From a virus (Duplodnaviria; Heunggongvirae; Uroviricota; Caudoviricetes): a stretch of DNA of 6,514 bases. Position 1 is the first letter of the stretch, and every line of letters begins with the position of its first letter. The stretch lies in IMG/VR virus record IMGVR_UViG_2563366903_000006; one strand, written 5' to 3'. Made by a program: the position numbers. Below are positions 3,001 through 6,000 of this stretch, piece after piece.

Positions 3001-6000
3001 TGGATGAGGCCAGGGCAGCGAAACAGAAGGCAGAAGAGGTTGCGACAACCCGCCCGTCGGGAGAAAGCATACCTGGACCGAAAGGTGACAGGGGCGAGCA
3101 AGGACCGGCAGGTCCCACAGGTCCGAAAGGTGAGCGCGGTGAACCCGGACCTCAGGGGCCTGCAGGACAGAAAGGTGAGCAGGGCCTCCGTGGGCTGCAG
3201 GGGGCGACAGGACCTGCGGGAGCAGTGGGGCCCGCAGGCCCACAGGGACCGGCTGGTGCAGCTGGTCCCAAAGGTGATGCAGGCCCGGCAGGGCCACGAG
3301 GTGAAAGGGGACCCGCGGGGGCACAGGGTGTTCCGGGGCCGGTTGGTCCGGCAGGTCCTGCGGGTAAAACGGGGCCACAGGGCCCTGCCGGAGGGCGAGG
3401 ACCGATGGGACTGCCCGGGTTGGATGGTAAAACCGGACCACAGGGACCACAAGGACCACAGGGACCACAAGGGCCAACCGGAAGGCTGGTACCCGGGGAA
3501 ATTTACAGCATCGGAACATACATTATTGCCGCACTAGGCCCGTATATAACCGACATCGGCAGAACCTATCAGCCAGGAGAAACTGTATCGGGTTCACGCC
3601 TTAAGCGATGCGCCCTAATCAAAGACGAAAACGGAAACTATATGAAAGCTAACACCGATGGCATTGACGGCATACTATCCTCAGTTCCGGGCTCATGGAT
3701 GGTGTGTAATGAAATTACGTCGACAAATGATAATGAAAGCATCGGGCTGTTCCAGCGCGCATACTGACAGACAGGAGATGAACATGAATGTGGAAAAAAT
3801 AAGCAATCCGCAATGGGCAGATAAAGATCACACTGCTGTCAATTGCATGGTGAAGTTTGAGCACATTGAGCAGGCGGTTCCTTTCACTGCAACAGCCAGC
3901 GATACCGAAGCATACGGGCGGGATATTTATGCCGCTTGTCTGAGAGGAGAGGCCGGTGAAATTGCAGAATATGTACAGCCATCCATCAGCCCGGAAAAAG
4001 CCAGAGAACTCAAAACCGCCGGGATCAACGCCTGGCGTAATGCGATGGAAGCGGCGAACTACACGTTTGAGCACAATGGGCGTAAATGGGACTACGGGAA
4101 GTCAACGCAGACGCGTCTTGAGCCGTCGGTGGCGGCAGCGAAAGCGGGGAAACTGCCGGAGGCGTTTTTCTGGACGGATGCGGACAATAATGACGTACCG
4201 ATGGACGCTGAAACACTGATTGCTCTGAGTGCTGCTGCAGAGCAGGCGATGTTTACCAAAGGTCTGGAAATTCATGTCAGACAGCGCACGATGAAAAAAG
4301 AGATTGAAGCGCTGGGTGATGCGGAAGCTATACTGGCGTATAAGGTCGGCATGGCTGACAGGTGAAAAAAAGAGGGGCGCTCCAGCCCCTTGCTACAAAG
4401 CTATGGCTAAATAAAGAATACTCAGGTCGAGGAAATAATCTGGCAATGATAATTAAAGGAGATGCAACGGCCTCCTTCACCCCTGTCAAAGATAAAAAAC
4501 TGGGGAGTGCGTGCTCCCCGAGAGCATGATACTTGTGGTTGATAGTTATTTTTATCCGGCGACAAAGATATTGAGATGAGGGCGCGGATGCAATACAGAA
4601 TTTTCGTATTGCATGGTAACTGCTGATTCCTGAAACTGAAAGTCGTCATGAAACTGTAAGCGAAAAAACGGGGGGGACGGCACGCTCCCCAAGGTCATAC
4701 ATGAGATAGTGGTGTTTTTATAGTCGAAAGAATAATTGCATAAAAAGAGTGTAAATTAAACATTCAGGGGATACAGAATTTTCGTAGGCTGAGGGATTGC
4801 TGAAAATAATTTAGTGCGTCCTTCAATGGTCATTCAATGGTCATCAGATTGTGCTGATGTAAACAGTTAAGCACAATTTGATTATTTGACTTTCTTCTTT
4901 TTGTGACTAACTTCACAATTAAAGATGTAACCGTATACAAATTGTTGATGAATAAAGAGACAGCATAAGTGGCAGGCCAGTCGTAATGCGGATATCCCTT
5001 CGCGGACGTGATATCACCGACGTTATAGTAAGGAAATTCCGAAAAACTTCATATTAAAATTCGGAATTTCTTCAGGAGTAAGCTCATGAGAGCGGCGAGA
5101 CATCAGATTTTCTTTATATATCCGATGTTGAACTGTTTTATTTGTATACAGATAATTTTATAGGGTATACCACATGAGCAAGAAATTTACAAAGACTATT
5201 CTTTCATCTGCTGTTGCCGGTCTGTTGTTGGTGAGTGGTGGGGTTGTTGCGGCAACTCCTGATGACGTAAAAATTGGGGACGAGTACATCGTAAAATTTT
5301 ACAAGGATGGGGAAGGTGCCAAGATAGTAGACGCACAAGGAAAAGAGGTTTTAGGTGCTATTAATACAACAACAGGAAGCATCATGGCCTTTAATAAAGA
5401 GGAGGTTGCTAATTTTTTAGCAAAACACGGAGAAAGTAAAACGCAGGATTATTTTAATTCTATTGCGTATCCTGTCTACTTACCTGAGTTAAAGCTGGAA
5501 AATATTAAAAAGTTAAAGGGTACAGACGTTGAAAAAATAAAAAAAGTTAAGGATGATGTATCCAAGATTATTACCTCCAAAACCGCGGCCGATTATAACC
5601 AGGCTGTAAAAAATGGTATGAGTTCTGAAGCTGCACTGACTGTAGCTAAAGATGGTGGTGCAGTCTTAAAAGAATTCAACCGAATTGATTCGGATATCGA
5701 CCAACTGAATAAAGAGACAACTTTTGCGCTTGATGCCGATGGCAATATCACGCTGGATGAAAATCAGGGAAGCGGTGAGCGTTATTCTGTAAAACAAACA
5801 GTCGCAGATATTAAGGCTGACACTACTGTCTACCAGAATAAAGATGGCAGCTATACACTTGACCAGAGCGCACCGGGCAACGTTCGTGTGAATGATGCTG
5901 TTGTCAGCCTCGACAACAGAACCCGCAGTAACACTCAGGCTATCCAGAATCACTCCCGCCAGCTGCAGGAGCATAACGCACGCCTGAACAGCCAGCAGCG

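What the first reader, a model, noticed from the sequence alone, without database searches (positions are those of the whole stretch)
4364..4391. Terminator abutting the tfa stop is oriented for the minus strand, implying a leftward transcript from the intergenic region
The hairpin is followed by a U-tract only on the minus strand (U7-8 after AGGGGCUGGAGCGCCCCU). On the plus strand it is preceded by the A-run and followed by UUGCUAC. So it looks built to stop transcription arriving from the AT-rich region on the right before it enters the tail-fibre operon antisense. That supports real minus-strand transcription units in 4392-4850.
Basis: seen in the sequence. Interest (0 to 1): 0.45.

Follow-up and report, generated by a model that had tools for sequence, protein, structure and literature searches.

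The report
Leftward-facing terminator capping tail-fibre operon
Right after the last tail-fibre gene of this E. coli prophage sits a conserved transcription stop signal that works only for RNA polymerase coming from the opposite direction; it most likely shields the tail genes from stray antisense transcription out of the neighbouring Eib adhesin cassette, which makes it a well-built but ordinary element.

Summary
At 4373-4390 a 6-bp GC hairpin (minus-strand RNA AGGGGC-UGGAGC-GCCCCU, -11.6 kcal/mol) is followed by C+U7 on the minus strand only. The U-tract (4365-4371) starts on the last base of the tfa stop codon. Under strict criteria the whole window has two such terminators, both minus-strand (4390 and 4519), against 0.05 expected.

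The window is an Eib prophage: tail fibre, tfa (DUF4376), an 808-nt spacer, then an eib-like YadA-anchor adhesin gene. T1 is the outermost of two to four leftward-facing terminators: T3 4663-4690, T2 4494-4519, T1b 4444-4479, T1. Across nine haplotypes T1 keeps its stem and U-tract while its loop changes. Where T2 is weakened, T1b is stronger.

About 14 unrelated hairpin families follow tfa stops in other prophages. Most carry an upstream A-run, six face minus only, and two face plus only.

The further inference of discrete minus-strand genes in 4392-4850 is not shown:
- no promoter scores above shuffle expectation
- no conserved small ORF
- no Rfam match
- no conserved RNA structure beyond the terminators

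Best reading: a boundary insulator against leftward, probably pervasive, transcription from the AT-rich cassette. Ordinary kind, previously unannotated member.

The parts
3784..4365 (+). tfa-like gene (DUF4376), last gene of the plus-strand tail-fibre block; stop TGA at 4363-4365
   Evidence: Pfam DUF4376 at 1.4e-19. PHROG phrog_1141 'tail fiber protein' at 1e-78. Annotated 'tail fiber assembly protein' in PhiR5_2. The listed ORF starts at 3658, but homologues are annotated from the position equivalent to 3784.
4365..4371 (-). U7 tract of terminator T1 (A7 on the plus strand); its last base is the A of the tfa stop codon
   Evidence: Direct reading. Kept as U6-U7 in all nine haplotypes compared.
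4373..4390 (-). T1 hairpin, the finding itself: 6-bp stem (5 G-C pairs), 6-nt loop, -11.6 kcal/mol
   Evidence: The stem is identical in L003/L022, where the loop is GCUAUGGCUU/GCUAUAGCUU instead of UGGAGC.
4444..4479 (-). T1b: weaker minus-facing hairpin (AAGGAG...CUCCUU) with an AU-rich tail
   Evidence: 9 pairs, 3 G-C. -9.7 kcal/mol here, but -16.8 kcal/mol with AAAUUUUUAUU in L003/L022, the alleles in which T2 is weakened.
4494..4519 (-). T2: second strong minus-facing terminator (GGGGAG-CACGCA-CUCCCC + AG + U6)
   Evidence: Conserved in 7 of 9 haplotypes; a stem mismatch in L003/L022 brings it to -6 to -7 kcal/mol.
4663..4690 (-). T3: third minus-facing hairpin + U6, variable between alleles
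   Evidence: -9 to -12.5 kcal/mol in window/L002/L006, decayed to -2.7 in L004/L005/L022, absent in L001/L003/L007.
4485..4840 (.). Two diverged tandem copies of a ~175-nt unit (u1 4485-4662, u2 4655-4840). Each carries a terminator (T2, T3) and the invariant 16-mer ATACAGAATTTTCGTA (4593-4608, 4771-4786).
   Evidence: Pairwise alignment score z=7.4 against shuffles. Repeat families D2 and D3. The 16-mer is not found outside Eib loci beyond chance.
4582..4699 (.). 118-nt segment (u1 palindrome + T3) present or absent between alleles; short alleles carry one hybrid unit
   Evidence: Alignments; junction read.
4843..4882 (+). 13-bp palindrome followed by a U-rich stretch on the plus strand; candidate plus-strand terminator or operator, identical in all E. 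coli alleles
   Evidence: Repeat I5. Plus-strand fold -19.1 kcal/mol, z=-3.05.
5033..5070 (+). 11-bp perfect inverted repeat; the stem_loop annotated in GenBank AF151091 (P-EibA)
   Evidence: Repeat I8. AF151091 feature 3777-3814 mapped by offset. Fold z about -2.6 to -3.3.
5128..5156 (+). Best plus-strand promoter-like site upstream of eib (TTGAAC-17-GATAAT)
   Evidence: not above shuffle expectation. It lies in the ~170 nt shared with other eib-like cassettes. A published eibG complementation construct carried 168 bp of upstream sequence (PMC13534694).
5174..6247 (+). eib-like trimeric autotransporter adhesin gene (the cargo)
   Evidence: Pfam YadA_anchor at 4.4e-16. The spacer matches prophage P-EibA (AF151091), where the gene downstream of it is annotated eibA.
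6281..6297 (+). Plus-strand terminator-like hairpin after eib (right boundary of the cassette)
   Evidence: It corresponds in position to the second stem_loop of AF151091.

Best explanation
The hairpin at 4373-4390 with its U7 tract (4365-4371) is a unidirectional Rho-independent terminator for RNA polymerase moving leftward, on the minus strand. It would release the transcript at the tfa stop codon, so antisense RNA overlaps tfa by at most a few bases.

It is the last of a stack of leftward-facing terminators (T3, T2, T1b, T1) in the left ~330 nt of the tfa-eib spacer. Together they form the left boundary of the Eib cargo cassette. Leftward transcription most plausibly comes from weak or spurious promoters in the AT-rich eib upstream region and eib 5' part. 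The stack stops it before it runs antisense into the tail-fibre genes.

Plus-strand (late) transcription is not stopped, because none of these hairpins has a plus-strand U-tract.

Shown: anatomy, orientation, non-randomness, conservation, and recurrence in unrelated sequences. Inferred: that termination happens in vivo, that leftward transcription exists, and that insulation is the selected function.
For: (1) Anatomy and orientation.

(2) Non-randomness. There are only two strict terminators in the window, both minus-strand and both in the spacer, against 0.05 expected per window.

(3) Conservation with turnover. The T1 stem and U-tract are intact in nine haplotypes, at -11.6 to -12.6 kcal/mol, while the loop is replaced in L003/L022. 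In those same alleles T2 loses a stem pair (-6 to -7) and T1b gains pairs and a U5 run (-16.8). Every haplotype therefore keeps at least two good leftward terminators. Counted by hand with the hairpins kept in register (the automatic column count, 5 of 36, was thrown off by a gap misplaced next to T1), stem positions changed 1 of 36 against about 34 of 130 elsewhere in 4366-4530, Fisher p=8e-4.

(4) Recurrence. In about 14 non-homologous hairpin families immediately after tfa stops of related prophages, about 12 have an adjacent upstream A-run. The background probability is 0.069, so P(>=11 of 14)=5e-11. Six families are minus-only, about six bidirectional and two plus-only.

(5) Context. What lies to the right of such tfa genes is often leftward-transcribed: host pot genes, an integrase, a pyocin gene or a convergent tail gene. 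tfa homology in 233 E. coli genomes mostly ends at the stop codon, so T1 is the first element of the cassette-specific DNA.

(6) A plausible source. The region to the right is 33-40% GC. Minus-strand -10-like hexamers reach 9.6 per kb in the eib 5' part against 1.8 per kb in the structural genes. The best promoter-like match in the window is antisense inside eib, 5478->5451, 10 of 12. AT-rich acquired DNA is known to fire spurious promoters in both orientations (PMC3923964, PMC7229825). Antisense RNA over prophage tail genes can have strong effects (STnc6030, PMC7067206).
Against: - There is no transcript data of any kind.
- No promoter in the spacer scores above shuffle expectation.
- The strong antisense promoter-like site inside eib lies in an allele-specific segment and is not conserved.
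- T3 decays or is deleted in several alleles, so not every hairpin is maintained.
- In relatives without the cassette (L028, L036, L043) a minus-only hairpin sits between tfa and the next plus-strand gene, with no obvious leftward source nearby. That fits a relic or a plus-strand RNA role as well as insulation.
- The haplotype sample is small and mosaic, so the conservation statistics are modest.
- The 6-bp stem is short for a highly efficient terminator.
Confidence: 0.6

Rival explanations
1. The minus-facing terminators are the 3' ends of one to three discrete leftward small RNA genes in the spacer. The tandem ~175-nt units u1 and u2 would end at T2 and T3, and possibly a short RNA at T1. 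These would be an undescribed prophage sRNA family, perhaps acting on eib or on host targets.
For: - u1 and u2 are a diverged tandem duplication (z=7.4). Each keeps a GGGGAG...CUCCCC hairpin + U6 and a perfectly identical 16-mer about 75-80 nt upstream, while the rest has drifted.
- Hairpin + U6 ends and a 100-180-nt size fit Hfq-type sRNAs (own knowledge).
- Prophages of pathogenic E. coli do encode sRNAs (PMC4104026 and bioRxiv 10.64898/2026.05.13.724894).
Against: - No promoter above chance, and none at a conserved distance in u1 and u2. The best minus-strand site (4837->4808) depends on an 11-nt duplication present in only some alleles.
- No conserved structure or covariation beyond the terminator.
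- No Rfam family.
- T3 is decayed or deleted in six of nine haplotypes, and the short alleles fuse the u2 5' part to the u1 3' part at non-homologous positions.
- The 16-mer is not found outside Eib loci.
Confidence: 0.2
2. T1 is a relic: the terminator of a former convergent, leftward cargo or early gene that the eib cassette displaced. It is still intact but has no present function.
For: - Minus-facing terminators after tfa are natural where the neighbour is leftward-transcribed (L020, L034, L076, L080).
- The same hairpin family persists when the neighbour is a plus-strand gene (L028, L036, L043).
- T3 is visibly decaying.
- The spacer is a recombination mosaic.
Against: - T1 keeps its stem and U-tract across alleles that differ by about 20% around it, and its loop has turned over.
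- Loss of T2 strength coincides with gain in T1b.
- The A-run bias across unrelated families is very strong, which argues for continuing selection on minus-strand termination.
Confidence: 0.15
3. The hairpin acts on the plus strand, as a 3' stabiliser or processing signal, or as a weak terminator of the late tail-fibre mRNA. The upstream A-run is incidental.
For: - The plus-strand hairpin is slightly more stable (-13.6 kcal/mol, 7 pairs).
- It lies 7 nt after the stop of the last gene of the block.
- Stable 3' hairpins protect mRNAs from exonucleases (own knowledge).
Against: - There is no plus-strand U-tract.
- An incidental A-run cannot explain its presence in about 12 of 14 unrelated families, or in T2 and T3 as well.
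- In PhiR5_2 plus-strand genes continue beyond the cassette.
Confidence: 0.05

Closest known systems
Canonical Rho-independent (intrinsic) terminators of E. coli and its phages
   Same: A short GC-rich stem (6 bp, 5 G-C pairs), a 6-nt loop, and a run of 7 U starting 1 nt after the stem.
   Different: No identified gene or promoter lies upstream on its strand. It faces into the end of an operon on the other strand rather than closing a gene of its own.
Bidirectional terminators between convergent genes (an A-tract and a U-tract flanking one hairpin)
   Same: It has the position (between a plus-strand operon end and the DNA to its right) and the A-tract/hairpin layout. Several tfa relatives do carry truly bidirectional versions (L019/GER2, L020, L066, L086).
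   Different: Here the plus-strand U-tract is missing (UGCUACAA), so the element is one-way.
Moron cassettes of lambdoid phages (promoter-gene-terminator units inserted among late genes; own knowledge of the HK97/HK022 work)
   Same: eib is an AT-rich cargo gene with its own upstream region and a plus-strand terminator-like hairpin after it (6281-6297). It is found in two different phage backbones.
   Different: The classical moron description has a terminator only downstream of the cargo gene. Here the cassette also begins with a stack of terminators facing the other way.
Tandem terminators used for tight insulation (for example rrnB T1-T2; own knowledge)
   Same: Two to four same-direction terminators lie within about 330 nt.
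   Different: The members here are unequal and vary between alleles, and two of them arose by duplication of a larger unit.
Prophage-encoded sRNAs and asRNAs (AgvB/AsxR, Pas sRNAs, STnc6030)
   Same: Prophage location next to structural genes, and terminator-ended short units.
   Different: No sequence or structure match to any Rfam family, including AgvB and AsxR. Four of the five Pas sRNAs lie in the Q/lysis region (bioRxiv 10.64898/2026.05.13.724894). [quoted passage not shown] No evidence of a transcript here.

Membership tests
Rho-independent terminator (minus strand) | GC-rich stem of at least 5 bp with a short (3-8 nt) loop | tested here: met
   6 bp, 5 G-C pairs, 6-nt loop, -11.6 kcal/mol.
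Rho-independent terminator (minus strand) | U-rich tract within 0-2 nt 3' of the stem | tested here: met
   C then U7 on the minus strand; kept as U6-U7 in all alleles.
Rho-independent terminator (minus strand) | Transcript 3' ends at the U-tract in vivo, or termination in a reporter | not testable with these tools
   No RNA data were available, and literature searches found none for this locus.
Rho-independent terminator (minus strand) | An upstream transcription unit on the same strand | tested here: inconclusive
   No promoter above shuffle expectation. No conserved ORF or RNA. AT-rich DNA with many -10-like hexamers lies to the right.
Rho-independent terminator (plus strand) / bidirectional terminator | U-tract after the hairpin on the plus strand | tested here: not met
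   The plus-strand tail is UGCUACAA, and the scanner reports no plus-strand site here.
Base-pairing sRNA gene (Hfq-type) | Own promoter at a defined distance, plus a conserved seed or structure | tested here: not met
   No significant or positionally conserved promoter. Only the terminator is shared between the paralogous units, with 0 compensatory pairs. The conserved 16-mer could be a seed, but this was not tested.
Base-pairing sRNA gene (Hfq-type) | Membership of a described RNA family | tested here: not met
   Rfam 15: no hit at E<=1 on the window, and only chance-level hits (E 3.7-7.2) at E<=10 on the spacer.
Type I toxin-antitoxin / small-protein gene | A conserved small (often hydrophobic) ORF upstream of the terminator | tested here: not met
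   The 22-aa ORF at 4695-4763 (minus strand) and its 24-aa counterpart in the other allele are read in different frames over the middle part, and the start codon is lost in P-EibA. The 48-aa ORF is broken by a 4-nt length difference. No Pfam or PHROG hits.
Moron (autonomous cargo cassette) | Cargo gene unrelated to phage growth, found in different phage backbones, with a downstream terminator | tested here: met
   A YadA-anchor adhesin. The same spacer + eib follows lambdoid J-lom-stf-tfa, and also the SU10-adaptor-like backbone of the window. A plus-strand terminator-like site lies at 6281-6297.
Moron (autonomous cargo cassette) | Own promoter | tested here: inconclusive
   TTGAAC-17-GATAAT at 5128-5156 is the best plus-strand site but is not above chance. 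A published eibG construct with 168 bp of upstream sequence complemented from a plasmid (PMC13534694).

The most novel reading that the evidence does not exclude
The left third of the tfa-eib spacer encodes a previously undescribed family of leftward prophage small RNAs. These would be tandem ~175-nt paralogues, each ending in a GGGGAG...CUCCCC/U6 terminator and carrying the invariant motif UACGAAAAUUCUGUAU, with T1 as the final stop. The motif resembles one arm of the conserved eib-leader palindrome at 5033-5070. Such RNAs, or a protein that binds the repeated DNA motif, could therefore take part in the unexplained condition-dependent and IbrAB-dependent control of eib.
Probability: 0.15. Interest if true: 0.55.

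Novelty: new member of a known kind. Interest (0 to 1): 0.28.

Why it matters
It matters modestly.

It adds an unannotated but well-supported regulatory element to a virulence-associated prophage cassette. RefSeq annotates nothing in this 808-nt spacer, and some GenBank records place spurious ORFs over the hairpins.

It also points to a simple design rule that seems not to have been stated explicitly. Among the tfa (DUF4376) relatives sampled here, mostly E. coli prophages, the last tail-fibre gene is usually capped by a terminator that faces backwards, and often only backwards. The structural operon is thus shielded from transcription coming out of cargo or host DNA, while late transcription can still read outward.

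This is useful for prophage annotation, for interpreting antisense signals in lysogen transcriptomes, and for engineering cargo into phages.

Tried and rejected
- Known RNA family: Rfam on the whole window (E<=1) and on the spacer (E<=10) gave nothing credible.
- Small proteins: Pfam and PHROG scans of all spacer ORFs of 48-75 aa were empty. Frame and indel analysis of the 22/24-aa and 48-aa ORFs shows they are not conserved. The 55-aa plus-strand ORF that starts in a GTGA overlap with the tfa stop (annotated in PhiR5_1) has no start codon in L003/L022.
- Promoters: a PWM scan of both strands gave top scores equal to the shuffle mean.
- sRNA structure: RNAalifold on u1 and the two u2 alleles found only the terminator.
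- Wider homologues of the spacer: searches of the phage collection and of 5,426 E. coli genomes found only Eib loci, 27 genomes with a median of 3 copies each.
- The 16-mer in IMG/VR gave Eib loci plus roughly the number of hits expected by chance.
- Two scans of species-representative genomes gave nothing (T1 pattern) or only six chance hits in unrelated MAGs (eib-upstream pattern).
- Phage lambda as a direct analogue: the tfa-ea47 gap has no canonical terminator on either strand, so it was dropped.
- Conserved antisense promoter inside eib: the best site lies in an allele-specific segment.
- Pas, AgvB and AsxR sRNAs: four of the five Pas sRNAs sit in a different prophage region (the Q/lysis region) and PasB, which sits among structural genes, was not compared by sequence; AgvB and AsxR, which are in Rfam, gave no match.
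- Literature on eib regulation: no promoter or transcript mapping was found.
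Full report
**What the window is.** The plus strand carries a block of phage structural genes:
- a SU10-adaptor-like protein at 1039-1689
- a 693-aa tail fibre with collagen and phage-fibre repeats at 1686-3767
- a DUF4376 protein ending at 4365 that phage records annotate as tail fibre assembly protein

An 808-nt spacer (4366-5173) follows, then a 357-aa protein with a YadA membrane anchor. The spacer and its flanks match Escherichia phages PhiR5/PhiR12 at 94-98% identity. They also match prophage P-EibA of ECOR-9 (AF151091), where the downstream gene is eibA, an immunoglobulin-binding trimeric autotransporter. The cassette is rare: 27 of 5,426 complete E. coli genomes, usually with several copies per genome. 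It occurs behind two different backbones, lambdoid J-lom-stf-tfa and the backbone of this window. RefSeq annotates nothing in the spacer.

- The stop TGA is at 4363-4365 and the A-run at 4365-4371.
- The hairpin AGGGGC/GCTCCA/GCCCCT is at 4373-4390, followed by TGCTAC.
- On the minus strand this is a 6-bp stem with 5 G-C pairs and a 6-nt loop, then C and seven U. On the plus strand there is no U-tract.
- The scanner flags it, and it flags three more minus-strand sites just to the right: 4479-4454, 4519-4502 and 4690-4673.
- With strict criteria the entire window contains only two terminators, both on the minus strand (4390 and 4519). Dinucleotide shuffles give 0.05 per window.
- Folding energy alone is not distinctive for such a short GC-rich piece (z=-0.29). 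The evidence lies in the geometry, the position and the conservation.

**Conservation.** I aligned the spacer from nine loci.
- T1 is present in all of them. In the two most divergent alleles (L003, L022; about 80% identity over the left ~135 nt of the spacer) the stem AGGGGC/GCCCCU and a U6 run are unchanged. The loop is replaced and lengthened, and the energy is -12.6 against -11.6 kcal/mol.
- In those same alleles T2 has a stem mismatch (-6 to -7 against -11.6 kcal/mol), while the weak T1b becomes an 8-bp hairpin with AAAUUUUUAUU (-16.8 against -9.7 kcal/mol). Every haplotype therefore keeps at least two good leftward terminators.
- With the hairpins kept in register, stem positions changed 1 of 36 against roughly 34 of 130 other columns in 4366-4530, Fisher p=8e-4. 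The automatic count was distorted by a misplaced gap.
- T3 is different. It lies in a 118-nt segment that is missing in three alleles, and it is decayed in three others.

**Recurrence elsewhere.** Using the tfa protein I collected 80 related prophage loci and read the DNA after each stop codon.
- About 14 hairpin families with no sequence similarity to each other sit within 1-16 nt of the stop (43-44 nt in two of them).
- About 12 of the 14 have an adjacent upstream A-run. The background probability of such a run is 0.069, so P(>=11 of 14)=5e-11.
- Six families are minus-only: the window type, GGGGGA..UCCCCC, AGGGGAGC..GCUCCCCU, and those of L080, L076 and L016. About six are bidirectional and two are plus-only.
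- What lies to the right varies: host pot transporter genes, an integrase, an S-pyocin gene, a convergent P2 gpU-like tail gene (all leftward), or plus-strand eib-like genes.
- In 233 E. coli genomes tfa homology mostly ends at the stop codon. T1 is therefore the first element of the cassette-specific DNA.
- Five of seven distinct eib-like cassette types begin with a minus-facing or bidirectional terminator.

A backward-facing stop signal capping the tail-fibre operon therefore recurs across the tfa relatives sampled here. It is not a peculiarity of this window.

**Are there minus-strand transcription units in 4392-4850?** I could not show this.
- The best sigma-70-like score on either strand (10.1) equals the mean top score of shuffled sequence, 10.2 +/- 1.5.
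- The best minus-strand site (4837->4808) relies on an 11-nt duplication that only some alleles have.
- The minus-strand ORFs are not conserved. The 48-aa ORF is broken by a 4-nt length difference between alleles. The 22-aa ORF ending just before T3 has a 24-aa counterpart in the other allele that is read in a different frame over its middle, and its start codon is lost in P-EibA. None has a Pfam or PHROG match.
- Rfam finds nothing.

The spacer does contain a diverged tandem duplication of a ~175-nt unit, u1 at 4485-4662 and u2 at 4655-4840 (z=7.4). Each copy has a terminator (T2, T3) and an identical 16-mer, ATACAGAATTTTCGTA, at 4593 and 4771. That layout is what a duplicated sRNA gene would look like. 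Against this reading:
- The two units share no structure beyond the terminator, and there are no compensatory pairs.
- The short alleles join the 5' part of u2 to the 3' part of u1 at non-equivalent positions.
- The 16-mer is not found outside Eib loci beyond chance.

I keep the sRNA reading as a minority possibility.

**Where could leftward transcription come from?**
- The DNA to the right is 33-40% GC.
- Minus-strand -10-like hexamers are five times denser in the 5' part of eib than in the structural genes.
- The best promoter-like match in the whole window is antisense inside eib, 5478->5451, 10 of 12. That segment is allele-specific.
- AT-rich horizontally acquired DNA is known to initiate spurious transcripts in both directions unless silenced by H-NS (PMC3923964, PMC7229825).
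- Antisense RNA over prophage tail genes can have strong biological effects (STnc6030 in Salmonella BTP1, PMC7067206).

This makes a selective reason for a boundary terminator plausible, but it remains inference.

**Mechanism proposed.** RNA polymerase moving leftward through the spacer meets T3 (where present), T2, T1b and finally T1. At T1 the nascent hairpin followed by U7 releases the transcript at about 4365-4371, at the edge of the tfa coding region. Late, plus-strand transcription passes unhindered because the hairpins have A-tracts, not U-tracts, on their downstream side in that direction. In PhiR5_2 further plus-strand genes, including another tail fibre gene, lie beyond the cassette. 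One-way terminators would make sense in that arrangement, though this too is inference. The cassette would then be closed on the right by the plus-strand hairpin after eib, at 6281-6297.

**Rivals.**
1. The terminators are 3' ends of discrete leftward sRNAs, as discussed above.
2. T1 is a relic of a displaced convergent gene. In favour: T3 is decaying, and minus-only hairpins persist between tfa and a plus-strand neighbour in L028, L036 and L043. Against: stem and U-tract conservation with loop turnover, and the apparent T2/T1b compensation.
3. T1 has a plus-strand role as an mRNA 3' stabiliser. Against: the very strong A-run bias.

**Comparison with known elements.**
- The element meets the sequence definition of an intrinsic terminator on the minus strand and fails it on the plus strand. 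It is therefore not a bidirectional terminator, although several relatives are.
- The eib unit behaves like a moron. The backward-facing terminator stack at its upstream edge is not part of the classical description.
- The stem_loop that Sandt and Hill annotated upstream of eibA in AF151091 is a different element, the perfect 11-bp inverted repeat at 5033-5070.
- I found no paper that maps promoters or transcripts in this spacer. One study complemented eibG with 168 bp of upstream sequence (PMC13534694). That fits the ~170 nt that different eib-like cassettes share and suggests that 4366-5005 is not required for eib expression.

**Verdict.** The step to 'real minus-strand transcription units' is unproven. 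This is a new, previously unannotated member of a very well known kind of element, with a modestly interesting architectural regularity attached. Interest is 0.28.

Noticed in passing
window 4593-4608 and 4771-4786 (also 4588-4614): An identical 16-mer, ATACAGAATTTTCGTA, occurs in both tandem units. In u1 it is the centre of a 9-bp-arm palindrome, ATGCAATAC-N9-GTATTGCAT. Its core resembles the arms of the eib-leader palindrome (GAAATTCCGAA / TTCGGAATTTC). It could be a repeated protein-binding site or an RNA motif.
   Followed up: partly
window 4843-4882: A 13-bp-arm palindrome, identical in all E. coli alleles, folds at -19 kcal/mol on the plus strand (z=-3) and is followed by UAUUUGACUUUCUUCUUUUUG. 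It may be a plus-strand terminator that separates late read-through from the eib control region, or an operator. A weak minus-strand promoter-like site (4909->4881) overlaps it.
   Followed up: partly
window 4818-4839: An 11-nt tandem duplication (GTCCTTCAATG / GTCATTCAATG) is present in the window, L005 and L007 and absent in the other alleles.
   Followed up: partly
window 4630-4770: Two sharply diverged alleles (about 70% identity) of this ~140-nt segment sit between flanks that are 97-100% identical. This is a recombination mosaic. In one allele T3 is decayed and a different hairpin (GGCAAC-TGAAT-GTTGCC) appears.
   Followed up: partly
window 5033-5070: A perfect 11-bp inverted repeat with a 16-nt spacer lies ~100 nt upstream of eib. 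It is the only feature of the spacer annotated in GenBank (stem_loop in AF151091). Its function is unknown.
   Followed up: partly
window 5451-5478 (minus strand): The best sigma-70-like match of the whole window (TAGACA-16-TAAAAT, 10 of 12) is antisense inside the AT-rich 5' part of eib. The segment is allele-specific.
   Followed up: partly
window 1686-3767: The tail-fibre protein carries five collagen triple-helix repeat stretches plus a phage tail fibre repeat. A GC-rich minus-strand terminator-like hairpin lies inside the gene at 2652-2635.
   Followed up: no
window 3658-3784: The tfa ORF as listed starts at 3658 and overlaps the tail-fibre gene by 110 nt. Homologues are annotated from the position equivalent to 3784 (193 aa) or as 223 aa, so the true start is uncertain.
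   Followed up: no
L001-L008 compared with the window: The same spacer + eib cassette sits behind two unrelated tail modules: lambdoid J-lom-stf-tfa, and the SU10-adaptor-like / collagen-fibre module of the window. Eib genes of different length (357-466 aa) lie behind a nearly identical upstream region.
   Followed up: partly
L034 3584-6061: In one tfa relative the prophage ends right after the minus-facing hairpin. The next genes are host-like (a CxxCxxCC protein and a pot-type ABC transporter) and are transcribed towards the prophage. This is a natural case in which such a terminator would block host read-in.
   Followed up: partly
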